A DNA stretch of 64,000 nucleotides from an uncultured Desulfobacteraceae bacterium (GTDB taxonomy: Bacteria > Desulfobacterota > Desulfobacteria > Desulfobacterales > SKZT01). Positions 2,667-42,493 of the stretch are shown piece after piece. Position 1 is the first letter of the stretch; each line of letters opens with the position of its first letter. A program made the translations under genes and the position numbers. Location of the stretch: contig CAYZJH010000001.1 of assembly GCA_964478625.1 (NCBI GenBank), positions 76,588-140,587 of the forward strand. Direction: 5' to 3'. The notes below the pieces were generated by a model. It was not told where the DNA came from and searched no databases. It worked only from the letters and a program-made list of their open reading frames with translations.

Positions 2667-4082
2667 TCATGTTTTTTTGCTCATTTTATATTCTCTGGCG
2701 ATTTTAACCAGAGCTTGAGCCCACTCAGGAGTTCCAAGAGCATGGATATGAGTGTAAGTGGCAAGAACATTTTTATAAACAAATCCGTCTTTATGATCCC
2801 TGATTCCTGAACCGCGTTTCATAGAAAAAACCAGATCGCTTTTTCCTTTGGGGCATTTGAGAACACTGGAATAATGGAATTCATGGCCTTTTAATTCGGT
2901 TCCTACACTGTAATACGGGTTTTTTCTTTCCACGGTGATAACCGTATATCCATGGCCCTGAGGTTTCTTACAGAGGCCGAATTTCAGTGGAAGAACCCCG
3001 GCCATGGGGTAGGATTTATCCTGCAAAACAAGCTCTTCTCCCAAATACATCAATCCTCCGCATTCCGCGTAAACAGGCAACCCACTTTCCGCAAGAAATT
3101 TCAATCTCTTCCGAAAATCTTCCTTTTCAGCCAAAATTTCAGCGTGGGTTTCCGGAAAGCCCCCTCCGATGTAAAGAGCGTCAACCTCTGGAAAATCATT
3201 ATCTTCAAAAGGACTGATAAATATCACAGATGCACCAGCAGCTTTTAACGCCTCGATATTATCCGGATAATAAAATTGAAATGCCGAATCCCTGATGACA
3301 CCTATCGTTGGACTGTCTTTGGCAGTTTGTATGTTATCACCAGGAAATCCTTCCCCAACCAAATGTTCGGTAATTTCTAAGGGGCATGCTTTTTGCGCAA
3401 TATCCAAAACAGCATTTAAATCTATATGGTTCGATACAATATCCCTAATGGCCTTCACAGAATCAATGCCGCGATTGTGTTCAGGGGTAGGAATCAACCC
3501 CATATGCCGTTCAGGAAAATTTTGTTCTTTGAGTTTCGGCACAGCTCCGACCACAGGAATTCCGCAGTGATATTCGATATTTTGGCGAATATTTTTCTGG
3601 TGCCGCAACCCTGCTACATGGTTTAAAATAACACCCTTAAGTTGAACATCAGGATCAAACCTGAGACATCCCAAAACAATGGCCGCTAATGTCCGGGTTG
3701 ATTTAGTGCAATCAAGGCATAATATGACCGGTGTGTTTAATAGTTTGGCCAATTCGGCGGTGCTGGTTTTTCCGAAAGTATCAATACCGTCATATAAACC
3801 GCGATTTCCTTCTATTACGGAAATGTCAGTATACTGGGAATGCCGGAGGAAAGAATGTAGGATTTTTTGATTTGAGATGAGAAAATTGTCCAGATTATAG
3901 CAAGGCCGGCCTGCGGAAAGCGCAAGCCAGCCCGCATCAATGTAATCCGGACCTTTTTTAAAAGGTGCGATAGTTTTTCCCTGTTTTGCCAAAGCCGCGA
4001 TGATTCCAACAGTGATCACCGTTTTTCCGGAGCCTCCCCGTAAGGCAGCAATTAAAATTCTTGGGAGATCGGAAAGCAACAT
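2667..4082 (-). CDS. dsrN: DsrN, a CbiA/CobB-family amidotransferase (cobyrinic acid a,c-diamide synthase-like; siroheme amidase).
   Basis: 471-aa ORF. It has the N-terminal P-loop-like GGSGKTVITVGIIAAL, a C-terminal glutamine amidotransferase region (YAECGGLMYLG) and HEFHYS. It lies directly downstream of dsrD in the dsrABD cluster. Confidence 0.85.
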   Translation of the reverse strand: MLLSDLPRILIAALRGGSGKTVITVGIIAALAKQGKTIAPFKKGPDYIDAGWLALSAGRPCYNLDNFLISNQKILHSFLRHSQYTDISVIEGNRGLYDGIDTFGKTSTAELAKLLNTPVILCLDCTKSTRTLAAIVLGCLRFDPDVQLKGVILNHVAGLRHQKNIRQNIEYHCGIPVVGAVPKLKEQNFPERHMGLIPTPEHNRGIDSVKAIRDIVSNHIDLNAVLDIAQKACPLEITEHLVGEGFPGDNIQTAKDSPTIGVIRDSAFQFYYPDNIEALKAAGASVIFISPFEDNDFPEVDALYIGGGFPETHAEILAEKEDFRKRLKFLAESGLPVYAECGGLMYLGEELVLQDKSYPMAGVLPLKFGLCKKPQGHGYTVITVERKNPYYSVGTELKGHEFHYSSVLKCPKGKSDLVFSMKRGSGIRDHKDGFVYKNVLATYTHIHALGTPEWAQALVKIAREYKMSKKT

Positions 4083-4454: not shown

Positions 4455-5603
4455 TTAGAACTTGAATTGTGAAGTCTGGCGCCAGGTAAAGTAAGCCGGA
4501 TCACGGAAATCATCGATGAGGTGATGCGAAAATTCCAGTTCGCATTTCTCGAAGAATCTTTCCCATCCGATTCGTTCGGCCCATTCGCCAAGACGTTCAT
4601 ATTTTCTGGCATCGGCGGCATAAACTTCAACCATTTTCTTAATGACATCACAAGTTGATGGCCATCTCGGTGCTTCGTTGGGAATAAAAGCCACAACAAC
4701 TTTTGAGAACTTGGGTGCGCTGATACGGTTGGATACTTTTCCACCAGCCATGATTACGATACCATCACCTTCCTTGTCAGCAAGCGGCAAGGAGGGACAC
4801 ATGGTATAGCAGTTCCCGCAGAACATGCAACGCTCATTGTTAATGGCCACGCTATTGACCTTGGTACCATTAGGCAATTCCACTTTTGCAGGCTTAATGG
4901 CAGCGGTGGGGCATGCTGCAATGGCCAATGGAATTTCACACATTTTGTCAAGGTATTCATGGTCAAGTAGAGGCGGTTTTCGGTGGTAACCCAAAATAGC
5001 GATATCTGAACAGTGAACCGCGCCGCACATATTCAAACAACATGCCAAAGACACCCGGACATGAGCCGGCATTCTGTGATTTTTGAATTCGTCGAAAAGA
5101 ACATCCATAACCGCTTTTACCGGGCCAGAAGCATCCGTGGCCGGGGTATGGCAATGAATCCATCCCTGGGTATGAACGATATTGCTGATCCCTGCGCCGG
5201 TACCACCCACCGGAAACTTGAAACTTCCAGCAGCAAATTTTCGGCTTTCAAGATCATCAATCAACGGCTGAACTTTGTCTTTGCTGTCAACCATAAATTC
5301 GATGTTATTTCGTGTAGTAAAACGCAAATACCCGCCACAATGTTTATCGGCGATTTCACAAATTTCACGAATGTGTGTAACCGACATTAAACGGGCTCCG
5401 CCGCAACGAACCGTGTAGACTTCATCACCTGATTCTGCGACATGCACCAGAACGCCGGGCTTCAGATATTCGTGATATAACCATTTGCCCTTATTTTTAG
5501 CGATGACCGGAGGGTAAAATTCATCATATTTCCGAGGACCAATATCAGTGATCCTATCCTCCATCGGTTTATCCGGATTATATCCTGAAGAAATAAATGC
5601 CAT
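4455..5603 (-). CDS. dsrB: Dissimilatory sulfite reductase beta subunit.
   Basis: 382-aa ORF 12 nt downstream of dsrA. It has a sulfite/nitrite reductase ferredoxin-like fold, siroheme-[4Fe-4S] cysteine motifs ([20 protein letters not shown]) and an inserted ferredoxin domain ([12 protein letters not shown]). Confidence 0.95.
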
Positions 5604-5615
5604 GATTCCCCCTTT

Positions 5616-6929
5616 TTATCTCTGATGGTATTTTCTGAATTCGTTGATGTCGCGATCCCAACCACCTTCGACTTCTTCTTCTTTCCAGAAGATGTAGGGG
5701 TTGGTACGAGGTTCTTGGACCATCCGCGGATCAGGGTCAAGACCAGCCACTTCAAGAAGCTTCTGAAGGCCCTGACGTTTCATCAACTCTCCAAGACGCT
5801 CCCGGTTTTTGCCCTCTTCCATCCACCAGTCCCAAATCGGTTCGATCACGTTTTCCTTAATTTCGGTGTAGGGAGCCTCAGCCTTGATAAAAGGCACGAT
5901 CAGCGTACCCAGTTGAGCACCATCAAGAATCGGAGCTTTCGCGCCTGCAAAAATCGATAAGCCTCGATCGTCGCCGATTCGCAAGGCTCTGGGCATAACA
6001 TTGATACAATGCATGCAGCGAGTACATTCCCTGTTGTCAATTTTCAATGTCTTGCCATCCATCCACATACATTCCGTGGGGCACAACCCGATGACTTCTT
6101 TTTGGATGTCAAATTTACCCCAATCACGTCCGCTGTGGGCACCGGCATTAGGCACAAATTCACCACCGATATAAGCTTGAACAGCTTCCTGATCGATTTT
6201 GATATCATCTTTCCAGGTTCCGATAAAAGACATGTCCGCACGCGCAATCGATGCAACACAACCATTCGGGCACCCGTCAAACTTAAATTTGAATTTATAC
6301 GGGAAGGCTGGACGATGAAGTTCATCCTGATATTCCATTGTCAGGTCGTAACAAAGATCCTGTGTATCGTAACAGGCGTACTCACAACGGGCTTGACCGA
6401 TACAATCTGCAGGGGTTCTCAGGTTGGAGCCTGAACCGCCCAGGTCCTGCCCGATATTGTGTGTCAACTCATAGAAAATTTCTTCGAGCTGCTTGGTGGT
6501 GGTGCCAAGGAAAATAATATCGCCGGTAGAACCGTGCATATTGGTGATTCCACTGCCCCTAAAATCCCATAAATCAACAATTTTTCTAAGGTGTTCAGTT
6601 GTGTAGAATTTTCCACCAGGTTGGGCAACTCGCATGGTGTGAAAATGTGCAACGCCAGGAAACATTTCCGGCTGATCGCAATATCGGCCGATAACGCCAC
6701 CACCATAGCCAAATACGCCAACAATACCGCCATGTTTCCAGTGGGTCCGACCATGCTTAAAGGAAAGCTCAAGGACACCCAAAATGTCTTCGACCACATC
6801 GACCGGGATCTGATATTCGATACCATCTGGGTTTTTGGCCCGTCTCTCGGCCTCTTGCTTCAAGTCGGACACGAAGCTGGGCCAGGGTCCGGATTCTAAC
6901 TGGTCCAACATTGGGATTTCATGTTTCAT
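5616..6929 (-). CDS. dsrA: Dissimilatory sulfite reductase alpha subunit.
   Basis: 437-aa ORF with N terminus LESGPWPSFVSDLK, typical of DsrA. Cluster motifs are CEYACYDTQ, DGCPNGC and CTRCMHCINVMP. A GGAGG RBS precedes the ATG. Confidence 0.95.
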   Translation of the reverse strand: MKHEIPMLDQLESGPWPSFVSDLKQEAERRAKNPDGIEYQIPVDVVEDILGVLELSFKHGRTHWKHGGIVGVFGYGGGVIGRYCDQPEMFPGVAHFHTMRVAQPGGKFYTTEHLRKIVDLWDFRGSGITNMHGSTGDIIFLGTTTKQLEEIFYELTHNIGQDLGGSGSNLRTPADCIGQARCEYACYDTQDLCYDLTMEYQDELHRPAFPYKFKFKFDGCPNGCVASIARADMSFIGTWKDDIKIDQEAVQAYIGGEFVPNAGAHSGRDWGKFDIQKEVIGLCPTECMWMDGKTLKIDNRECTRCMHCINVMPRALRIGDDRGLSIFAGAKAPILDGAQLGTLIVPFIKAEAPYTEIKENVIEPIWDWWMEEGKNRERLGELMKRQGLQKLLEVAGLDPDPRMVQEPRTNPYIFWKEEEVEGGWDRDINEFRKYHQR

Positions 6930-22244: not shown

Positions 22245-23054
22245 TTGGACAACAGTTTGAAACATGAGATTATTTCCTGGTATTTCGACAAGACCGAATA
22301 TGCGAGTCAGCGGGTTATTTGCGAAGAACCCCTTTCCATCCGTATTCAGGGAAAACCCTACTCTGTGGTCATGAGAACTCCGGGCGATGAGAAAGCTCAT
22401 GCAGCAGGTTTTTGCCTCGCCGAAGGCATTGTTGATCAGCCGGAGGATATTTTAGCATTGGGCTTTTGTGATGGGGAAAATACCAACGTTGTGACGGTTA
22501 CCCTAACTCCCGAGAGACAAAAAATAGCCGGAAAACATCTGGACCGGAGGGAATACATCAGCCAGACCAGTTGCGGGATATGCGGGAAATATATTGTGGA
22601 AGAACTCCAGCAGTTACTTTTGCCGATTAAAAAAAAAACAGTGATCAATGCCCAAAAAGGATTGGACTGCCTTGAAGATCTTAACAAATACCAGCCATTG
22701 AGAGACAAAACCCGAGCAGCCCATGCAGCCGTTTTGTTTGACAATAATTACACTATGATTTCAGTTGCAGAGGATGTCGGACGTCATAATGCGCTCGATA
22801 AAGCTGTCGGTAAATTGTTTTTAGAAAAAAAACTTGAAAGTGCGGCCTTTCTGGTTTTATCTTCTCGGATCAGTTACGAACTTGTGCAAAAAGCTGCAAG
22901 AGCGCGAATTCCAATTATCCTTGCAATGTCCCGACCCACAGCACTTGCCGTTTCTCTGGCCTCCGCCCTGAACATCACTCTGGCATGCCGGGCACCTGAA
23001 AAAGGCCTTTTTATATATTGCGGAGCCAAACGGCTTCTCATGGATACAAATTGA
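22245..23054 (+). CDS. fdhD: Formate dehydrogenase accessory sulfurtransferase FdhD.
   Basis: 269-aa ORF. EEPLSIRIQG, MRTPGDEKAHAAGFCLAEGI, the active-site region SCGICG and GRHNALDKAVG are typical of FdhD. The TTG start lies 7 nt after GGAGG. Confidence 0.85.
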   Translation: MDNSLKHEIISWYFDKTEYASQRVICEEPLSIRIQGKPYSVVMRTPGDEKAHAAGFCLAEGIVDQPEDILALGFCDGENTNVVTVTLTPERQKIAGKHLDRREYISQTSCGICGKYIVEELQQLLLPIKKKTVINAQKGLDCLEDLNKYQPLRDKTRAAHAAVLFDNNYTMISVAEDVGRHNALDKAVGKLFLEKKLESAAFLVLSSRISYELVQKAARARIPIILAMSRPTALAVSLASALNITLACRAPEKGLFIYCGAKRLLMDTN

Positions 23055-36491: not shown

Positions 36492-37718
36492 CTACATGGC
36501 ATCCTTATCACTTGCTTCAATGGCTTTATCTATTTCCGCTTTTAACTGAGGCGGCAAATCGGGAATATCCAGATTAAGAAATCCTTGTATGATTGTGGAT
36601 ACGGCCTCGTCTTCAGTCAGTCCTCGGGACATGAGATAAAGAATTTCTTCTTGGGCAATTTTTCCCACCGCAGCTTCATGAGACATTTCAACACCATCGG
36701 TATGCCCCTCCAACTCAGGTATGGCATGAATCTTACCACCGTTTAAAATAAGCCCTTTACATTCCAGATGAGCCTTCACTCCCGGAACCTCACCGACCAG
36801 GTGACCCCGGGCAATAATATTTCCGCCATTACTAATTGTTCGGGCAATAATTTCAGCCCGTGTACCCGGTTTTTTCAGAAAAACCCTGCCTCCGATGTCA
36901 TATTCACTGTCCGGTGCGCCGACGATTATGCTGTAGAATCGGGCTATAGAATTTTCTCCAACCAGGTGGGTCGTTGGATACATTTGTAGTGATTTCACCG
37001 GTTTCATGCAAATATAATTATTAAGAAAAAGTCCCCCTTCTTCAACCCGGGCTACGCTTCGCGGACGAACCAGCATGTCTTCGGCCCAGTTATGAATCAT
37101 TGTAAATGACACCTTTGCGTTTTTTTTGATGAAAAATTCCGAAATACCGATATGGAGGCCTTTCATCAGGTGGGGAGAAGTCGCACAACCGGTGATGATA
37201 TGCAATTCCGAGTCTTCTTCTGCGATAATAATATTATGGACAACCTGTTGCAGGCCCTCCTTGTCAATATAAAGGCAGGCCTGGATCGGGTAAATACTTT
37301 TTTTTCCGGGAAGTGCGCGGATTACATAACCATCCTGGAGATTCAACTCTGCAGTCGCCGTGTATTTGTCGGTATCCACAGAGGCCAGTTTCCAGTAATA
37401 ATCCTCGATCCAATCGTATTTTTCAAGGGCTTTCCTTATGGGGATAACTTCTATACCATCCTGTTTTGTTTTACAGTGAATAACCTGACTATCTTTTTGA
37501 AAAAATGTCCCTCCGCGGTCCTTTTCCGTTAAATCCAATCCGGACATGATCAATCGCTCTTGTTCTTCCTTGGGAATCGACAGGAGTTCATTATCCGACA
37601 AATATTTGTGGGGTATATCGGATGTGTCGAAGTCTTCCAGATGAATATCCGGTCCTAAAACCGCCGATTTTTTTATTGCTTCTTTTGCTTTTTTTTTTAA
37701 TTCCTCCCGATTACGCAT
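36492..37718 (-). CDS. SufB/SufD-family Fe-S cluster assembly scaffold protein.
   Basis: The ORF track gives 37754. I prefer the ATG at 37718, which lies 8 nt after AAGGAG and yields MRNREELKKK. A SufBD-type beta-helix region and the C-terminal SHEAAVGKIAQEEILYLMSRGL are typical. Confidence 0.8.
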   Translation of the reverse strand: MRNREELKKKAKEAIKKSAVLGPDIHLEDFDTSDIPHKYLSDNELLSIPKEEQERLIMSGLDLTEKDRGGTFFQKDSQVIHCKTKQDGIEVIPIRKALEKYDWIEDYYWKLASVDTDKYTATAELNLQDGYVIRALPGKKSIYPIQACLYIDKEGLQQVVHNIIIAEEDSELHIITGCATSPHLMKGLHIGISEFFIKKNAKVSFTMIHNWAEDMLVRPRSVARVEEGGLFLNNYICMKPVKSLQMYPTTHLVGENSIARFYSIIVGAPDSEYDIGGRVFLKKPGTRAEIIARTISNGGNIIARGHLVGEVPGVKAHLECKGLILNGGKIHAIPELEGHTDGVEMSHEAAVGKIAQEEILYLMSRGLTEDEAVSTIIQGFLNLDIPDLPPQLKAEIDKAIEASDKDAM

Positions 37719-38461
37719 CTCACACACTCCTTGTATCCCATTTGGCCTATGCATTCTAAAATTTCACGAGGGTTGGTCGTGCAGCTTAATACTCCATCAT
37801 AAAGAACCTGACCTTTATCGGCGGTAACATAATCAAGAATATACCCCGTATGAGTAATAATCAGTCCCATTTTGGTACGAGCCTGCTTTTGTTTAATTAC
37901 CGGTTTATAATTTTCAGGATGAATTTGCTTTTCCAGAAGATCTGCTATGCTGTTGCCAACAAGAGAAATATTTTCAAGATCCACGCCCGATTCAGGTTCA
38001 TCGAACAGCATCAAATCGGCATTTTGTGCCATAAGCTGCAAAAGCTCGGACCGTTTTATTTCACCGCCGGAAAATCCGGCATTCACATCTCTGTCCAGAA
38101 AATTCAGAAAATCAACTCGATCGGCCAATTCTTCAACCTTAACTTCTTTTCCGGCGCAGATATTGACCATTTGACGGGTTTTTAACCCGTTAATGGTCGG
38201 AGGTCTCTGGTAAGACATACCGATTCCCAGCCTGGCGCGTTCATTGATGGGCATATGGGTGATTTCTTCACCCTTAAAGTACATTTTACCACCAATCACC
38301 TTGTATTGAGGATATCCCATGATCGTCATCAAAAGTGAGGTTTTACCCGAACCATTGGGGCCGAACAAAACATGGGTTTCACCAGGTTTTATTTCCAGAT
38401 CAATGTGTTTAAGGATGACATTACCCTCCAACTCCACCTGCAGATCTTCAATTTGCAGCAT
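37697..38461 (-). CDS. sufC: Fe-S cluster assembly ATPase SufC.
   Basis: 254-aa ORF with Walker A GPNGSGKTSL, the ABC signature FSGGEIKR and Walker B LMLFDEPESG. It overlaps the sufB/D start by 22 nt. Confidence 0.9.
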   Translation of the reverse strand: MLQIEDLQVELEGNVILKHIDLEIKPGETHVLFGPNGSGKTSLLMTIMGYPQYKVIGGKMYFKGEEITHMPINERARLGIGMSYQRPPTINGLKTRQMVNICAGKEVKVEELADRVDFLNFLDRDVNAGFSGGEIKRSELLQLMAQNADLMLFDEPESGVDLENISLVGNSIADLLEKQIHPENYKPVIKQKQARTKMGLIITHTGYILDYVTADKGQVLYDGVLSCTTNPREILECIGQMGYKECVRCVIGRN

Positions 38462-38699
38462 AAACTCCTCCTGTGCGAATTCACTTTAAGATCGCACTGA
38501 TAAATGATGTTCTCTTAACCATCTTATCCCTTTAATTTCACGGTTCTCATATTTCCAGGCTAAAAATCTAACCATCACCTTCACATATTCAAGCTCCCAA
38601 AACAGATTCTTCTTACCTAACCCTTCAGCAGACATCAACCATTCACCAGATTGACACCCAAACTTAAAGTCAGGGTTAAAAGGTGCTTCAGATCCGTCG

Positions 38700-39116
38700 C
38701 TATTTAGGCTCGGTAGGATACCTTGATCGATGCCACTCGTGCCAACCTCCTTTCAAAGCGTACACTTTTTCAAAACCCCTGTCATTCATTTGCTTCGCCA
38801 CCCAGGCGGAGGTTCCTTCGCCAGGTCAGGCGCAATACAGAATATAAGTTTTTCCAACATCATAATTATCTATCCAATCTTTCAAATTAGCCGGGTCTTC
38901 GTGGACAGCACCGCTGATTTTTATATCACTTGCCCTCCAGTCACTGCCTGACCTCACATCTAAAAAAATTACATCCGGATTATCCATCATCTCCCGAGCT
39001 TCCTCCTTGGTCATACGAGGAATTTCTTTTGCCCATATTTCCTGTGATGCCGTGATCACAGCCACCATCACCAACAGCGGCAAGATGATCAAAGCTTTTA
39101 TCCTGATAATGCTCAT
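38700..39116 (-). CDS. Secreted single-domain rhodanese (sulfurtransferase) with an in-frame TGA at codon 97, a probable selenocysteine (YCA-U-PGEG active-site loop).
   Basis: The ORF track stops at TGA (38828..38826) after ...GKTYILYCA. The same frame continues PGEGTSAWVAKQMNDRGFEKVYALKGGWHEWHRSRYPTEPK to TAG (38702..38700), which completes the rhodanese fold. The signal peptide is MSIIRIKALIILPLLVMVAVITASQEIWA. A GC-rich hairpin follows the TGA. Confidence 0.65.
38793..38825 (-). promoter_or_regulatory. Candidate bacterial SECIS-like stem-loop immediately 3' of the in-frame UGA.
   Basis: The mRNA reads UGA-CCUGGCGAAGGAACCUCCGCCUGGGUGGCGAAG. CCGCC pairs with GGCG around a UGGGU loop at +15..+33. 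An alternative pairs GGCG at +4..+7 with CGCC at +18..+21. Folded by eye only. Confidence 0.4.
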
Positions 39117-39165: not shown

Positions 39166-40455
39166 TCAACATCCTGATCTCAAAAAGATCGTTCTGAAAG
39201 CCGACAATACAATAAAAACGAAAACTAAAATCAACGCTATCAGCATATCAGGATCGGTAACCAATAGAACAACCGTCCCTGACATAAAAGTCGCTGCTGC
39301 AACAATTCCAGGCAGCACCAACCCCCTGTTTTCCATTTTAACCGAACCTGAAATTTGCCGAATTACATAAAGATTTAAAATTCCATGTGAAATAAGCCAA
39401 AGATAAAAAGCACTCCGACAGAGTGTTTCAGTGAAATTTTTACCCGCCATCCCCGCGATCAGCATGCTCAGAATACCAATGGACAAAATAACCATGATCA
39501 TATTTCCCTGTAAAACTTTTTTGGTCAACATGGAAAAAATTTGTCCGGACCTGGCCTTGGAAACTACAACAGAGGAAACACCCATCAATAGAGTGTTGAC
39601 GGAAGCAAAGCTTCCGGCAAGGATTGCTATTCCCATTATCTTACGGCCAGTTTCACCTGAGATAGCACGGGCAACGACAGAATGAGGAACAGTGCTGTCT
39701 GAAAGACGTTGTGAAGACGCAAAGTTCATGGAAACATTTCCCCAAAACCAAAAAACAGCTACGACCGCAATAATTGCCGTTATGATGGAAATCAATACAA
39801 AGGATGATCGCTTCTGGTAGGCTGCGTCATAATAATAGGCCAGATCAGCAGCCATAAAAAGCCAGAAAAGCAATGCCATTGACCTCCAATCCACATAAGT
39901 TGGTTGCACCACCTCATGAATTTCAGAAACCTGATTTGCACGGTTCAAAAACCCCAAAGCTATTAATATGAGCATCGACACGACGAAAACAACAACTGCC
40001 CATTTCTGAATGTGCCTTGAGGCATCAGGAATCAAAAAATTCAAAGCAACGATGAATATGAGAAAACATATGGAAAAAAGTAGATTCGGAAACCAATAAA
40101 AAAAAATTTCATTCAGGGCATATCCAGCCATGGCCAGGATAAGAGTCGATGCACCAATGCAAAAGGGAATCAGGGAGGAAAACTGCAATGTCGTAAAAAA
40201 CCATCGTAAATCGACTTTATTGATCGTAATTTTCTCATTGAAATCTGGTGAATTCAAAAACCAGAAATATAAGTATGCAGTCCACAAGTGGATCACGGCA
40301 ATACAGGGAAGCGCCCACAGAAACCATTTCCCTAAATTCCCCGCACTGTTGCCCAAAATTACAAGAGACAAAGGAGATATCATAAACCCTATGGCTATGC
40401 TTGTTGTCGTAAAAAAACTGGTTTGAGGCATATTGGGCTCGTTCATTGGAATCAA
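39166..40455 (-). CDS. Polytopic membrane permease, probably APC-superfamily-like; substrate unknown.
   Basis: 429-aa ORF with about 12 hydrophobic segments. It resembles amino-acid/polyamine-type permeases only loosely (e.g. VARAISGETGRKIMGIAILAGSFASVN). It ends 49 nt upstream of the rhodanese gene. Confidence 0.55.
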   Translation of the reverse strand: MIPMNEPNMPQTSFFTTTSIAIGFMISPLSLVILGNSAGNLGKWFLWALPCIAVIHLWTAYLYFWFLNSPDFNEKITINKVDLRWFFTTLQFSSLIPFCIGASTLILAMAGYALNEIFFYWFPNLLFSICFLIFIVALNFLIPDASRHIQKWAVVVFVVSMLILIALGFLNRANQVSEIHEVVQPTYVDWRSMALLFWLFMAADLAYYYDAAYQKRSSFVLISIITAIIAVVAVFWFWGNVSMNFASSQRLSDSTVPHSVVARAISGETGRKIMGIAILAGSFASVNTLLMGVSSVVVSKARSGQIFSMLTKKVLQGNMIMVILSIGILSMLIAGMAGKNFTETLCRSAFYLWLISHGILNLYVIRQISGSVKMENRGLVLPGIVAAATFMSGTVVLLVTDPDMLIALILVFVFIVLSAFRTIFLRSGC

Positions 40456-40543: not shown

Positions 40544-42493
40544 TCAAGCTGACCCTTTGTTTTCATTTTTTTTCAATAATACGAAGATATCTCCTTCAAC
40601 AGGTTTGTCGTTTTCTTTTCTCAACACAACAGGGCTATGATGGATGATTTGGAATCCTTTTTTTTCAGAAAGAACCCTGATGTATTTGCCTGCGTGAGCA
40701 AAGCGCCCTGTAGAACGTAAGCGATAGCCTTCCTCGCGGAATCGTTCCGTTGAAAATACAAAACACCCCCCATGAGTTATTCTGTTTTTGAGGTTTGAAA
40801 ATAATGGTTCCAAGTCACCCATATACACGAGAACATCTGCTGCAATCACCAAGTCAAATGTTTCACTGCTTTCCCCTAAAAATTCATTAATTTCTGAAAC
40901 ATGTAATTGGTTGTAAATATTTTTTTGTTGTGCGACACCAATCATGTCCGGCGAAATATCCACACCCACCATATATCCAGCGATATCATGAAAAACTTTT
41001 CCAGCCAAACCGGTCCCGCATCCCAAATCCAGAACATGTTTAAATTTCATATCCTTTCCGACAGATTGATCCAAAGCCTTTCGGAGAAGCTGCGGTGTCT
41101 GGTAGGAAAGTTTGCAGGTCAAATGGTTTTCAAATCGTTTTGAATATTGGTTAAAAAGCTCTTTGACATATTCCGGCGGTGCGTTTTTGGGGTTTTCTCC
41201 CGCCAATGCGGCTGCCATGTATTTGGCGGAGTGATTGCCTGGATCAAGCTGAGCAGCTTTTTGAAGCGCCGACAAAGCTTGACTTGTCTGTCCCATTTCA
41301 ATCAATGTGGTCCCGATATTGTGATAGGCATCGGCATATCCTGGAAAAAGTTTGGCTGCCTGGTTAAAAGCTATAAGAGCCTCCTGAAGTCTTCCCCGGG
41401 TTTTAAACAAGATACCGATATTCTGAAATACATGGGGGTTGTTTGGTTCCAGAGATATTGCCGTTTGATAGGACTTGAAAGCCTCTTGATTTTTTCCGGT
41501 TGCGCTTAAAGCGACCCCGAGGTTGTTATGGGTTTGGGGATGTTTCGGGTCTATTTCAATGGCCTTTTTATAAGCTTCAATGGCTTCTTCGATCCGGCCT
41601 TCGCTTTTCAGGGCAATTCCCAGGCTGTTATAGGCCTCTGCAAATGCAGGTTTTTTTTCAATGGCTTTTTCAAACTCTTCAATAGCCTCCGCCATTTTTT
41701 TATTGGCAAGCAGGTAGTTTCCATAACGATGATGAGCTTCGGCCGAATCCCTCGCCAAAAGTACGGCTTTTTGAAACGCCGCAGCAGCTTCGGCTTGTTT
41801 ACCTGCCGACTCAAAAGCAGCACCTAAATTTTGATAAGCTTGAACATTTTCAGGATCTGTTTGAATGCATTTTCTAAACTCTTCAACAGCCTCTTGAATT
41901 TTTCCCAGAAAAAGGAGTGCTTTTCCCAACCGGTTGCGGGTTTCCACCATGTCCGGTTTTTTATCCAAAAATTGTCTGAGTACTAAAATGGCCTCTCCCG
42001 GTTGATCATGCTTCAACAATATCCCGCTCAGGTTATGGCAAGCCTCGATATTTTCGGAATCTAAATCAAATGCTTTTTGAAATGCGTCGATGGCCTCGGA
42101 AATTTTACCCGTTTTACTGAGCACTTTTCCCATCATGTTGTAGGTTTCCGGATTTTTGGGATTCAGAGCAAGAGCTGTTTGAAAAGCATCTAATGCATCA
42201 GCGGCATCACCCATGGCACAGAGCGCAAGGCCCAGATGATTGTAAAAATAATCTCTTTCCGGTGCGCTGTGAATGGCTCGGGAAATCAATTCAGCTGCTA
42301 AACCGGGATTCTTGTTTCGGTAATAAATGCCGCCGAGCAGGTAAAGGGCATCAGGATTTTCCGGATCAAGGTCTAACAATTTTTCATAAAGAAATTGAGC
42401 TTCAGTGAATTTTCCATCCTGATTCGCAGCAATTGCCTTATCCAGCAACTCTTGTATTTTCATCTCTTTTTGTTCCATGTCCTTCTTTTTCAA
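40544..42493 (-). CDS. TPR-repeat protein fused to a C-terminal class I SAM-dependent methyltransferase domain.
   Basis: 649-aa ORF. About 12 TPR units fill residues ~10-430. The C terminus has VLDLGCGTGLAG (motif I) and DLVIAADVLVYMGDL. Confidence 0.8.
   Translation of the reverse strand: MKKKDMEQKEMKIQELLDKAIAANQDGKFTEAQFLYEKLLDLDPENPDALYLLGGIYYRNKNPGLAAELISRAIHSAPERDYFYNHLGLALCAMGDAADALDAFQTALALNPKNPETYNMMGKVLSKTGKISEAIDAFQKAFDLDSENIEACHNLSGILLKHDQPGEAILVLRQFLDKKPDMVETRNRLGKALLFLGKIQEAVEEFRKCIQTDPENVQAYQNLGAAFESAGKQAEAAAAFQKAVLLARDSAEAHHRYGNYLLANKKMAEAIEEFEKAIEKKPAFAEAYNSLGIALKSEGRIEEAIEAYKKAIEIDPKHPQTHNNLGVALSATGKNQEAFKSYQTAISLEPNNPHVFQNIGILFKTRGRLQEALIAFNQAAKLFPGYADAYHNIGTTLIEMGQTSQALSALQKAAQLDPGNHSAKYMAAALAGENPKNAPPEYVKELFNQYSKRFENHLTCKLSYQTPQLLRKALDQSVGKDMKFKHVLDLGCGTGLAGKVFHDIAGYMVGVDISPDMIGVAQQKNIYNQLHVSEINEFLGESSETFDLVIAADVLVYMGDLEPLFSNLKNRITHGGCFVFSTERFREEGYRLRSTGRFAHAGKYIRVLSEKKGFQIIHHSPVVLRKENDKPVEGDIFVLLKKNENKGSA

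What the first reader, a model, noticed from the sequence alone, without database searches (positions are those of the whole stretch)
38700..39116. In-frame UGA splits a secreted rhodanese, giving a probable selenocysteine sulfurtransferase with a C-A-U active-site loop
The ORF track ends this gene at TGA (38828..38826) straight after ...DVGKTYILYCA, inside the rhodanese active-site loop and before the C-terminal half of the fold. Read through in the same frame, the sequence continues for 41 codons (PGEGTSAWVAKQMNDRGFEKVYALKGGWHEWHRSRYPTEPK) to a TAG at 38702..38700. That supplies the missing loop, helix and the 'L-x-GG-x-x-W' end of a rhodanese domain, which is unlikely by chance. The TGA falls two residues after the conserved Cys, producing C-A-U-P. 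As I recall, some rhodaneses carry Y-C-x-C-P here, so a Cys/Sec pair is plausible. The UGA is followed by a GC-rich stem-loop (CCGCC/GGCG around a UGGGU loop at +15..+33), compatible with a bacterial SECIS. The protein has a clear signal peptide. Sulfate-reducing deltaproteobacteria are selenoprotein-rich, and 'rhodanese-related sulfurtransferase' appears, from memory, in computational selenoproteome surveys. A standard annotation would nonetheless truncate it or call it a pseudogene.
Basis: partly seen in the sequence, partly recalled or inferred. Interest (0 to 1): 0.78.

Follow-up and report, generated by a model that had tools for sequence, protein, structure and literature searches.

The report
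Known selenocysteine rhodanese, mis-annotated as truncated
This gene encodes a small secreted rhodanese in which an internal UGA is read as selenocysteine; it belongs to an already catalogued selenoprotein family (NCBIfam NF041203, "rhodanese_LYCAU"), so the finding is correct but not new.

Summary
The ORF 39116..38826 (-) ends at TGA straight after ...KTYILYCA, and 41 further in-frame codons complete a rhodanese domain. In 24 Sec-form relatives' loci whose DNA was read, the stop at this column is always TGA. The terminal stop varies. dN/dS after the TGA is 0.05-0.26, so that region is translated. A small hairpin 16-17 nt downstream shows compensatory changes, and its synonymous sites are frozen. 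TGA ends 13 of 36 other long ORFs here, so the codon is not reassigned genome-wide. The read-through protein scores 166 bits against NF041203 "rhodanese_LYCAU, rhodanese-related (seleno)protein" (cutoff 115). Reviews list this CxU form and credit Zhang and Gladyshev 2005. The UxU variant, which I also found, was published in 2007. Details added here: Cys95 is the canonical catalytic residue (Cys or Sec in 120 of 122 full-length relatives). Sec97 lies in a 2-residue loop expansion, and relatives carry Ser, Cys or other residues there. An APC-type permease gene is a conserved upstream partner in the closer clade. Two caveats remain. No Sec machinery lies in the window. The hairpin also survives in some non-Sec relatives. 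The biochemical function is untested. Novelty: already known. Interest: low.

The parts
38700..39116 (-). Complete selenoprotein CDS: 138 codons plus the TAG stop, with Sec at codon 97. It is a member of NF041203 rhodanese_LYCAU.
   Evidence: 166.4 bits against a cutoff of 115; profile positions 4-126 of 126.
39030..39116 (-). Predicted Sec-type signal peptide (codons 1-29, MSIIRIKALIILPLLVMVAVITASQEIWA, with cleavage before KEIPR).
   Evidence: Hydrophobic segment at residues 1-25. The n/h/c-region pattern and the A-x-A-like ends are shared by homologs. This is an inference, because no signal-peptide predictor was run.
38832..38834 (-). Cys95 codon (TGC), the canonical rhodanese catalytic position. 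It is TGA (Sec) in the UxU relatives.
   Evidence: Among full-length relatives, 115 of 122 have C and 5 of 122 have 'W', which is TGA. L040, L041, L044 and L083 carry TGA here. Short-loop relatives align their catalytic Cys here.
38826..38828 (-). In-frame UGA, read as Sec97.
   Evidence: The codon is TGA in all 24 Sec-form loci read. Downstream dN/dS is 0.05-0.26.
38796..38808 (-). Candidate bacterial SECIS hairpin. It has a 4-bp core stem (CGCC/GGCG) and a 5-nt loop UGGGU, +18..+30 after the UGA. A C.A mismatch followed by 2 more pairs extends it to 38793..38811.
   Evidence: Pairing is 91.4% in register versus 26-71% when slid, with compensatory CG/UA/UG and GC/CG pairs. RNAalifold finds the same stem. 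Third-base entropy at stem codons is 0, versus 1.3-1.9 bits elsewhere. The loop G at position 2 is invariant.
38700..38702 (-). True stop codon (TAG).
39166..40455 (-). Conserved upstream partner gene: a 429-aa polytopic membrane protein of the APC/AA_permease_2 type. It is on the same strand with a 49-nt gap, so it is probably co-transcribed.
   Evidence: Pfam AA_permease_2 scores 28.1 bits against a cutoff of 27 over residues 13-404. About 9-10 hydrophobic segments are predicted. It sits directly upstream in L005-L009, L035-L037, L078, L079 and L081.

Best explanation
The gene encodes a 138-residue precursor of a periplasmic single-domain rhodanese selenoprotein of the 'LYCAU' (CxU) family. 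Shown or strongly supported: the UGA at 38828..38826 is translated rather than terminating, and the product is a full rhodanese domain. Inferred step 1: SelB carrying Sec-tRNA(Sec) is recruited by the small hairpin 16-17 nt downstream (4-5 bp stem, loop N-G-N-N-N) and inserts selenocysteine at codon 97. Inferred step 2: the N-terminal signal peptide sends the protein through the Sec translocon to the periplasm, leaving a mature protein of about 109 aa. Inferred step 3: Cys95, the canonical rhodanese catalytic residue at the strand-to-helix junction, and Sec97, two residues later in a loop expanded by two residues that caps the following helix, act as a chalcogen pair. The protein accepts sulfane sulfur (or selenium) as a persulfide or selenopersulfide, and can close a C95-S-Se-U97 selenenylsulfide, so it works as a sulfur carrier or redox relay rather than a classic thiosulfate:cyanide transferase. 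The loop carries a conserved Glu instead of the usual basic residues. Inferred step 4: in this clade it works together with the APC-type permease encoded directly upstream, possibly handling a sulfur or selenium solute at the periplasmic face. The biochemical substrate is unknown. The confidence given (0.9) applies to the core claim, that this is a Sec-containing member of the known LYCAU rhodanese family whose UGA is decoded. The specific chemistry in steps 3-4 is much less certain (about 0.3).
For: Read-through is supported by the conserved TGA. Downstream dN/dS is 0.05-0.26, against 0.06-0.39 upstream, with synonymous sites near saturation. The domain is completed by the read-through.
Assignment as Sec rests on several points. 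The internal codon is always TGA while terminal stops vary, and four orthologs use TGA both internally and as the terminator of the same gene. TGA is an ordinary stop in 13 of 36 long ORFs of the window. Cys occupies the column in 16 of 122 relatives. The hairpin shows covariation and frozen synonymous sites. The protein matches the curated selenoprotein model NF041203 above its cutoff. Published selenoproteome surveys list this CxU form and its UxU variant (PMC13188914, PMC9312934, PMC1976440).
The geometry comes from an AlphaFold model of the Cys-form relative P0194 (pLDDT 90). The strand ends at Y86, C87-A88-C89 forms the connector, and the helix starts at P90. The rhodanese fold is confirmed at TM about 0.7.
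Cys95 as the canonical residue: it is Cys or Sec in 120 of 122 relatives, column 97 is variable, and short-loop relatives (CAKGLTS) delete columns 97-98.
Partner gene. The periplasmic polysulfide-sulfur transferase Sud (1qxn) is among the few solved relatives found by sequence.
Against: No selA, selB, selD or tRNA-Sec gene lies in the window, so the host's Sec-decoding trait is assumed from the family and taxon. The hairpin is small (-7.0 kcal/mol), and the window's MFE fold of the region is different. It is also intact in 3 of 5 non-Sec relatives, so it is not diagnostic on its own. Rfam has no matching family. No experiment shows selenium incorporation, export, sulfur transfer or a Se-S bond for this family. 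In the literature I could search, the function is listed only as predicted. The permease link holds in one clade only and could reflect inherited synteny.
Confidence: 0.9

Rival explanations
1. Sec97, not Cys95, is the true catalytic nucleophile. It occupies the canonical rhodanese Cys position of a normal 7-residue loop (U-P-G-E-G-T-S), and Cys95 is an auxiliary or resolving residue at the end of the strand. This is a rival only for the mechanism sub-claim, not for the selenoprotein assignment.
For: The gapless phmmer alignment to 6mxv puts the query's column 97 on that protein's catalytic Cys (YFYCGGGFRSA against LYCACPGEGTSA). In the AlphaFold model the equivalent residue caps the N-terminus of the active-site helix. 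Sec is normally found at catalytic positions.
Against: Column 97 is Ser in 51, Cys in 16 and Q/G/E/D/L/R/T in 22 of the 122 full-length relatives, and it is deleted in short-loop relatives. Column 95 is Cys or Sec in 120 of 122. The Sud and NoxA-3 alignments place the catalytic Cys on column 95 with a 2-residue gap after it. The strand motif K-T-Y-I-L-Y-C matches canonical rhodaneses whose Cys follows directly (KTYILYCASGGRS).
Confidence: 0.22
2. The UGA is decoded, but the conserved hairpin is not the SECIS. It would reflect another constraint, such as mRNA stability, translational pausing or codon bias over the T-S-A-x-x-A motif. SelB recruitment would then depend on another element, or a different amino acid is inserted.
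For: The hairpin is intact in the Cys (TGT), Arg (AGA) and Ser (TCT) relatives L085, L087 and L088. It has only 4-5 bp. There is no Rfam hit. The window-only fold is not significant.
Against: Synonymous sites in the stem are invariant, while other four-fold sites are free. Compensatory changes occur at two pairs. As far as I recall the bSECISearch model, the spacing and the G-containing apical loop fit the bacterial SECIS consensus. Four of the five non-Sec replacement codons are one step from TGA, which is consistent with recent Sec loss and a relic SECIS. No other conserved structure was found in the 57 nt after the UGA.
Confidence: 0.08
3. The gene is a pseudogene or carries a nonsense mutation, or the real product is the 96-aa truncated protein annotated in public records.
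For: Gene callers report a 96-aa product. The truncated ORF still scores above the Pfam threshold (26.9 against 22.2 bits).
Against: The same TGA is found in all 24 Sec-form loci read, from Desulfobacteraceae to a Dehalococcoidaceae MAG. Purifying selection downstream is as strong as upstream. The truncated form lacks the active-site helix and the GGW end of the fold, and it falls below the NF041203 cutoff.
Confidence: 0.01
4. UGA is reassigned genome-wide (code 4 or 25, Trp or Gly), so no selenocysteine is involved.
For: Some database entries of relatives read W at these columns (YCAWP, YWAWP).
Against: Those W residues are TGA codons mistranslated by gene callers on short contigs, and even the terminal TGA was read through. 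In the window TGA terminates 13 of 36 long ORFs, including housekeeping genes. L007-L010 end the same gene with TGA. The host is a dsrAB-carrying sulfate reducer related to Desulfobacteraceae.
Confidence: 0.01

Closest known systems
NCBIfam NF041203.1 'rhodanese_LYCAU', rhodanese-related (seleno)protein. [quoted passage not shown] Both reviews attribute it to Zhang and Gladyshev 2005, Bioinformatics 21:2580.
   Same: The match is full length and above the curated cutoff (166.4 against 115 bits). The protein has the same L-Y-C-A-U motif, the same size and the same taxa (Thermodesulfobacteriota, i.e. deltaproteobacterial sulfate reducers).
   Different: No difference was found, so this gene is a member. 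Details added here are the loop-expansion reading, the hairpin statistics and the permease partner in one clade.
UxU variant of the rhodanese-related sulfurtransferase selenoprotein (Zhang and Gladyshev 2007, PMC1976440, Fig. 3A).
   Same: It is the same family and has the same downstream hairpin. I recovered such forms myself (L040, L041/L043, L044, L083: TAC TGA GCC/GAT TGA).
   Different: The window's gene has Cys (TGC) at the first position, so it is the single-Sec CxU form.
Sud, the periplasmic polysulfide-sulfur transferase of Wolinella succinogenes (PDB 1qxn).
   Same: Both are small single-domain rhodaneses. Sud is exported, and export is predicted here. Sud is one of only four solved relatives detectable by sequence (E = 1.7e-4). 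Its catalytic Cys aligns with Cys95.
   Different: Sud has no Sec and a canonical-length loop. Similarity is weak. No polysulfide reductase genes lie next to the window's gene. The comparison is a functional analogy only.
Other rhodanese-fold selenoproteins: forms 1, 2 and 4 (UxxS, UxxG), the rhodanese-like protein ExtH encoded in the Geobacter ext cluster, and TsoB (UxxxxU) (PMC13188914, PMC5877670).
   Same: All have a rhodanese fold with Sec in or at the active-site loop, and are predicted to handle sulfur or selenium in the cell envelope.
   Different: In those forms Sec replaces the catalytic Cys itself (U at loop position 1). They differ in size or domain architecture (ExtH is 49 kDa; TsoB is a DsbD fusion). 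TsoB's model scores only 20.8 bits here against a cutoff of 805.

Membership tests
NF041203 rhodanese_LYCAU (rhodanese-related selenoprotein, CxU form) | Whole-protein score at or above the curated cutoff (115 bits), with full-length coverage of the 126-position profile. | tested here: met
   The score is 166.4 bits with U written as C and 159.5 bits with U written as X. Coverage is profile positions 4-126 of 126.
NF041203 rhodanese_LYCAU (rhodanese-related selenoprotein, CxU form) | An L-Y-C-A-U motif, with U encoded by in-frame TGA two residues after the Cys. | tested here: met
   The sequence is ...ILYCA-TGA-PGEGTS. The same motif and codon occur in orthologs.
Bacterial selenoprotein (general criteria) | An in-frame UGA conserved across orthologs, with protein-level conservation continuing after it. 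| tested here: met
   All 24 Sec-form loci read carry TGA. Downstream dN/dS is 0.05-0.26.
Bacterial selenoprotein (general criteria) | Homologs with Cys at the Sec column (a Cys/Sec pair). | tested here: met
   Sixteen of 122 full-length relatives have Cys at column 97, for example P0179, P0194, P0195 and P0212. Column 95 is itself a Cys/Sec pair in the UxU forms.
Bacterial selenoprotein (general criteria) | A SECIS stem-loop shortly downstream of the UGA, with a G-containing apical loop. | tested here: met
   The hairpin starts 16-17 nt after the UGA. Its loop is N-G-N-N-N with an invariant G. Covariation and frozen synonymous sites support it. One caveat is that it also persists in 3 of 5 non-Sec relatives. 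SelB binding was not tested.
Bacterial selenoprotein (general criteria) | The host encodes the Sec machinery (selA, selB, selC, selD). | not testable with these tools
   None was found in the 64-kb window.
Bacterial selenoprotein (general criteria) | Selenium actually incorporated (75Se labelling or mass spectrometry). | not testable with these tools
   This needs an experiment.
Rhodanese homology domain (Pfam PF00581) | A domain match above the gathering threshold, and the alpha/beta rhodanese fold. | tested here: met
   The score is 53.5 bits against 22.2, covering profile positions 1-101 of 102. The model of the relative P0194 has pLDDT 90 and TM about 0.7 to many solved rhodaneses.
Catalytically active rhodanese sulfurtransferase (GlpE/PspE/TST type) | A catalytic Cys directly after the central strand. 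| tested here: met
   Cys95 follows K-T-Y-I-L-Y. It aligns with the catalytic Cys of canonical KTYILYCASGGRS proteins and of Sud.
Catalytically active rhodanese sulfurtransferase (GlpE/PspE/TST type) | A canonical-length active-site loop (Cys plus five residues, typically with basic or polar residues that bind thiosulfate). This definition comes from my own knowledge of the family. | tested here: not met
   The loop is two residues longer (C-A-U-P-G-E-G-T-S against C-A-K-G-L-T-S in short-loop relatives). It carries a conserved Glu (98 of 122).
Sud-type periplasmic polysulfide-sulfur transferase | Close sequence relationship to Sud, and association with polysulfide reductase genes. | tested here: not met
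   The match to 1qxn is only E = 1.7e-4. The neighbours are an APC-type permease and SufC/SufBD-like genes, and no psr genes are present.

The most novel reading that the evidence does not exclude
The APC-type permease and the periplasmic CxU seleno-rhodanese form a dedicated two-gene module of sulfate-reducing Thermodesulfobacteriota. The module would capture a sulfane-sulfur or selenium species in the periplasm on a Cys95/Sec97 selenenylsulfide relay and hand it to the transporter. This would be a new chalcogen-uptake or detoxification route. The persistence of the hairpin in non-Sec relatives could additionally point to an RNA function beyond Sec insertion.
Probability: 0.2. Interest if true: 0.45.

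Novelty: already known. Interest (0 to 1): 0.15.

Why it matters
The main value is correct annotation. Public records hold this gene, and well over a hundred cluster representatives of its relatives, as 90-96-aa fragments or as proteins with spurious Trp residues. Selenoproteome counts and functional inference for sulfate reducers are distorted as a result. The family has no experimentally established function. Three observations give concrete starting points for biochemistry: the canonical Cys is retained, Sec is an added second chalcogen in an expanded loop, and a permease gene travels with it in one clade. None of this changes current understanding of selenoproteins.

Tried and rejected
(1) Folding the window's 66 nt alone gave z = -0.18, and the MFE structure differs from the conserved hairpin. 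Single-sequence folding was uninformative, and only comparative analysis resolved the stem.
(2) Rfam gave no hit over the whole window at gathering thresholds. A permissive scan of 38650..38900 gave only a chance snoRNA hit.
I used an N-terminal profile instead.
(4) After I thought no relative had Cys at column 97. That was an artefact of a top-150 list dominated by truncated entries. The alignment-seeded search found 16 Cys forms.
(5) The 'W' at columns 95 and 97 in some hits looked like Trp substitutions. DNA showed they are TGA.
(6) I expected the hairpin to be absent from non-Sec relatives as a negative control. It was absent or weakened in only 2 of 5, so that control is not clean.
(7) A scan of the window for other TGA-interrupted genes gave only adjacent same-frame genes and antisense noise.
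(8) A survey of about 50 window ORFs for SelA, SelB or SelD found none, and no tRNA was found.
(9) The promoter and terminator scan around the gene pair was uninformative.
(10) The PDB sequence search for the permease found nothing.
(11) The SufC/SufBD genes downstream are not conserved neighbours, so I rejected a link to Fe-S assembly.

Full report
**Observation.** On the minus strand an ATG ORF runs from 39116 to a TGA at 38828..38826, giving 96 aa that end ...DVGKTYILYCA. The same frame continues for 41 codons (PGEGTSAWVAKQMNDRGFEKVYALKGGWHEWHRSRYPTEPK) to TAG at 38702..38700. The truncated ORF matches only the first two thirds of the Pfam Rhodanese profile (26.9 bits, positions 1-69 of 102). 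The read-through covers the whole profile (53.5 bits, positions 1-101 of 102).

**Is the TGA conserved?** A word-indexed search of 5.8 billion proteins returned 22 intact homologs at 53-74% identity, and every one ends ...K(T/S)YILYCA. An exhaustive profile search of 1.84 billion cluster representatives gave 1373 hits. Nearly all of the top 150 end exactly at that column (...YC[ADTEK]) or two residues earlier (...LY). I read the DNA of 24 loci of relatives that carry a stop at this column (L005-L010, L033-L038, L040-L045, L078, L079, L081, L083, L084). They include Desulfobacteraceae and Syntrophobacteraceae MAGs, Desulforhabdus sp. TSK and a Dehalococcoidaceae MAG. The internal stop is TGA in every one. 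The terminal stop varies among TAG, TAA and TGA, and four orthologs use TGA for both. Several lineages (L040, L041/L043, L044, L083) carry two TGAs (TAC TGA GCC/GAT TGA), which gives Y-U-x-U.

**Is the downstream region translated?** Nei-Gojobori estimates between the window and 12 orthologs give dN/dS of 0.05-0.26 for the 41 codons after the TGA. The 41 codons before the motif give 0.06-0.39. Synonymous differences are at or near saturation in both regions. This excludes a pseudogene or a genuinely truncated product. TGA terminates 13 of 36 long ORFs in the window, so the codon is not reassigned genome-wide.

**The hairpin.** The 66 nt around the TGA align without gaps in 14 distinct Sec-form sequences. 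A stem at alignment columns 26-30 and 36-40 closes a 5-nt loop with an invariant G at loop position 2. In the window this is CGCC-UGGGU-GGCG at 38808..38796, starting 17 nt after the UGA, or 16 nt where the fifth pair forms.
- The stem is paired in 91.4% of cells, against 26-71% when the 3' partners are slid by 1-3 columns.
- Pair 27-39 shows CG:7, UA:4, UG:2 and one mismatch. Pair 26-40 shows GC:5, CG:4 and five mismatches. The switch at 26-40 follows the Ser codon changing between TCN and AGY.
- RNAalifold independently returns the same stem.
- Third-base entropy across 32 four-fold-degenerate codon columns in 18 Sec-form genes is typically 1.3-1.9 bits. It is 0 at the two stem codons (Ala GCC in 18 of 18; the codon before the second Ala ends in G in 14 of 14). 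The second Ala uses only G or A, which are its two pairing options.

So the stem is under RNA-level selection. Its spacing and G-containing loop fit the bacterial SECIS consensus as I recall it from the bSECISearch model; I did not re-read that paper. There are caveats. The hairpin is weak (-7.0 kcal/mol), and the window's own MFE fold is a different, non-conserved structure. The same stem is fully intact in three of five non-Sec relatives examined (Cys TGT, Arg AGA, Ser TCT), and is weakened in the other two (Cys TGT 4/5, Leu TTA 3/5). Four of those five replacement codons are one mutation from TGA, which fits recent Sec loss leaving a relic SECIS. Even so, the hairpin cannot be called diagnostic on its own.

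**Family assignment.** The read-through protein scores 166.4 bits (159.5 with X at the Sec position) against NCBIfam NF041203.1 'rhodanese_LYCAU', an equivalog named 'rhodanese-related (seleno)protein'. The curated cutoff is 115 bits, and coverage is positions 4-126 of 126. The truncated ORF scores 86.7 bits, below the cutoff.
[quoted passage not shown] - Both credit Zhang and Gladyshev 2005 (Bioinformatics 21:2580).
- The 2007 Olavius symbiont study reports eight such genes in deltaproteobacterial symbionts, with no Cys homologs in that dataset. It also describes the UxU variant (PMC1976440).

The finding is therefore a correct rediscovery of a catalogued selenoprotein family.

**Anatomy of the active site.** An alignment-seeded search recovered about 120 full-length relatives. 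Aligned to the window protein, column 94 is Tyr in 122 of 122. Column 95 is Cys in 115 and 'W' in 5. Column 97 is Ser 51, 'W' 23, Cys 16, gap 10 and other residues 22. Column 100 is Glu in 98, and column 103 is Ser in 117. The 'W' residues are TGA codons translated as Trp by gene callers on short contigs. L083 reads TAC TGA GCC TGA, and even its terminal TGA was read through. L084 reads TGT GCC TGA.

Column 97 is variable, however, whereas column 95 is essentially invariant as Cys or Sec. Within-family relatives with a canonical-length loop (C-A-K-G-L-T-S, C-Q-K-E-G-T-I) align with a gap exactly over columns 97-98. Canonical rhodaneses with the same strand (KTYILYCASGGRS) place their catalytic Cys on column 95.

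I conclude that Cys95 is the canonical rhodanese nucleophile and Sec97 sits in a two-residue expansion of the active-site loop. The alternative is that Sec97 is the canonical position. It is supported by a gapless alignment to 6mxv and cannot be excluded without experiment.

An AlphaFold model of the Cys-form relative P0194 was confident (mean pLDDT 90, about 97 at the site). It puts C87-A88-C89 (equivalent to C95-A96-U97) in the three-residue connector between the central strand and the active-site helix, which begins at the following Pro. Foldseek confirms a standard single-domain rhodanese fold, with TM about 0.7 and rmsd about 2 A.

**Localisation and context.** The N-terminus has basic residues, a hydrophobic core of about 20 residues and an ...IWA|KE end. 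Most homologs conserve this pattern, so a Sec-pathway signal peptide and a periplasmic location are likely. The Dehalococcoidaceae member lacks it. The window belongs to a sulfate reducer: dsrAB lies at 4455-6929, and the closest genomic ortholog is a Desulfobacteraceae MAG.

Directly upstream on the same strand, 49 nt away, is a 429-aa polytopic membrane protein. It has a borderline Pfam AA_permease_2 match (28.1 bits against 27), no NCBIfam name and no solved relative. This gene precedes the rhodanese in every closer-clade locus with enough flank (L005-L009, L035-L037, L078, L079, L081). That includes loci where it is only 29-35% identical and the other neighbours differ. It is absent next to four non-Sec relatives and next to the distant Sec forms. 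The SufC-like and SufBD-like genes downstream are not conserved neighbours.

**Mechanism.** It is well supported that the UGA is translated, and that the product is a complete rhodanese of the LYCAU selenoprotein family.
- Inferred: SelB-dependent Sec insertion directed by the downstream hairpin.
- Inferred: export to the periplasm.
- Inferred: a Cys95/Sec97 pair that carries sulfane sulfur (or selenium) and can form a selenenylsulfide. The conserved Glu in the loop argues against a classic thiosulfate-binding site.
- Speculative: functional coupling to the upstream permease.

Sud, the periplasmic polysulfide-sulfur transferase (1qxn, E = 1.7e-4), is the nearest functional analogy but not a family match.

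**What remains open.** No selA, selB, selD or tRNA-Sec gene lies in the window, and I found no other selenoprotein gene there. The host's Sec trait therefore rests on the family and taxon. The papers I could search report no experimental function for this form.

**Verdict.** The family is already known and curated, so interest is low. The practical consequence is an annotation correction: the gene should be annotated as 138 aa with Sec97. Two minor leads remain, the conserved permease partner and the hairpin's persistence in non-Sec relatives.

Noticed in passing
L083 456-875; L084 512-925; proteins P0173, P0187, P0206, P0208, P0220, P0256: Metagenome gene callers translated this family's TGA codons as Trp, apparently by choosing code 4 or 25 on short contigs. 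This produced spurious 'YCAWP' and 'YWAWP' proteins, and in L083 even the terminal TGA was read through. Twenty-three of 122 'full-length' relatives carry such a W at the Sec column.
   Followed up: yes
L085, L087, L088 (non-Sec relatives); compare window 38796-38808: The SECIS-like hairpin is fully intact in relatives whose Sec codon is replaced by Cys (TGT), Arg (AGA) or Ser (TCT). It is either a relic of recent Sec loss or a sign that the hairpin has another role.
   Followed up: partly
window 39166-40455 (-): An uncharacterised 429-aa APC/AA_permease_2-like membrane protein has no NCBIfam name and no solved relative. It is a conserved upstream neighbour of the CxU rhodanese in Desulfobacteraceae, Syntrophobacteraceae and Desulforhabdus loci.
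   Followed up: partly
window 4455-6929 (-): dsrB and dsrA (dissimilatory sulfite reductase) match at equivalog level, which identifies the host as a sulfate or sulfite reducer.
   Followed up: no
window 36492-38461 (-): SufC-like and SufB/SufD/SmsB-like genes lie directly downstream of the rhodanese, and their ORFs overlap by 58 nt as listed. Both score below the equivalog cutoffs, so they may be a divergent minimal SUF-like system. They are not conserved neighbours of the rhodanese.
   Followed up: partly
L005 3525-3671 versus window 36492-38461: The 80%-identical ortholog locus keeps only the last 49 aa of the SufBD-like gene (96% identical), about 110 nt after the rhodanese. SufC and most of SufBD are missing, so an indel or rearrangement separates the two genomes here.
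   Followed up: no
L010 / L045 (Dehalococcoidaceae MAG) 3001-3327: A distant Sec-form member (YCI-U-HNEESS) lies outside the Thermodesulfobacteriota and lacks a signal peptide. This suggests a cytoplasmic version, or horizontal transfer of the selenoprotein gene.
   Followed up: no
L041 1887-2402 and 210-1022: The UxU form in this metagenome contig lies just downstream of a Tpx-like thiol peroxidase ORF, and a CxxCH (NapC/NirT-like) ORF lies further upstream. This hints at a redox-stress context in that lineage. The ORFs were judged by eye from their N-terminal sequences only.
   Followed up: no
window 22245-23054 (+): FdhD, the formate dehydrogenase accessory sulfurtransferase, is present without an adjacent formate dehydrogenase gene in the window. 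FDH is commonly a selenoprotein in such organisms, so this is indirect and weak support for a Sec-using host.
   Followed up: no
window 40544-42493 (-): A 649-aa TPR-repeat protein with a C-terminal class I methyltransferase domain lies upstream of the permease. The same order (DAO/GlpD-like gene, TPR-methyltransferase, permease, rhodanese) is kept in the close relatives L079 and L081, and the TPR-methyltransferase, permease, rhodanese part in L005 and L037.
   Followed up: partly
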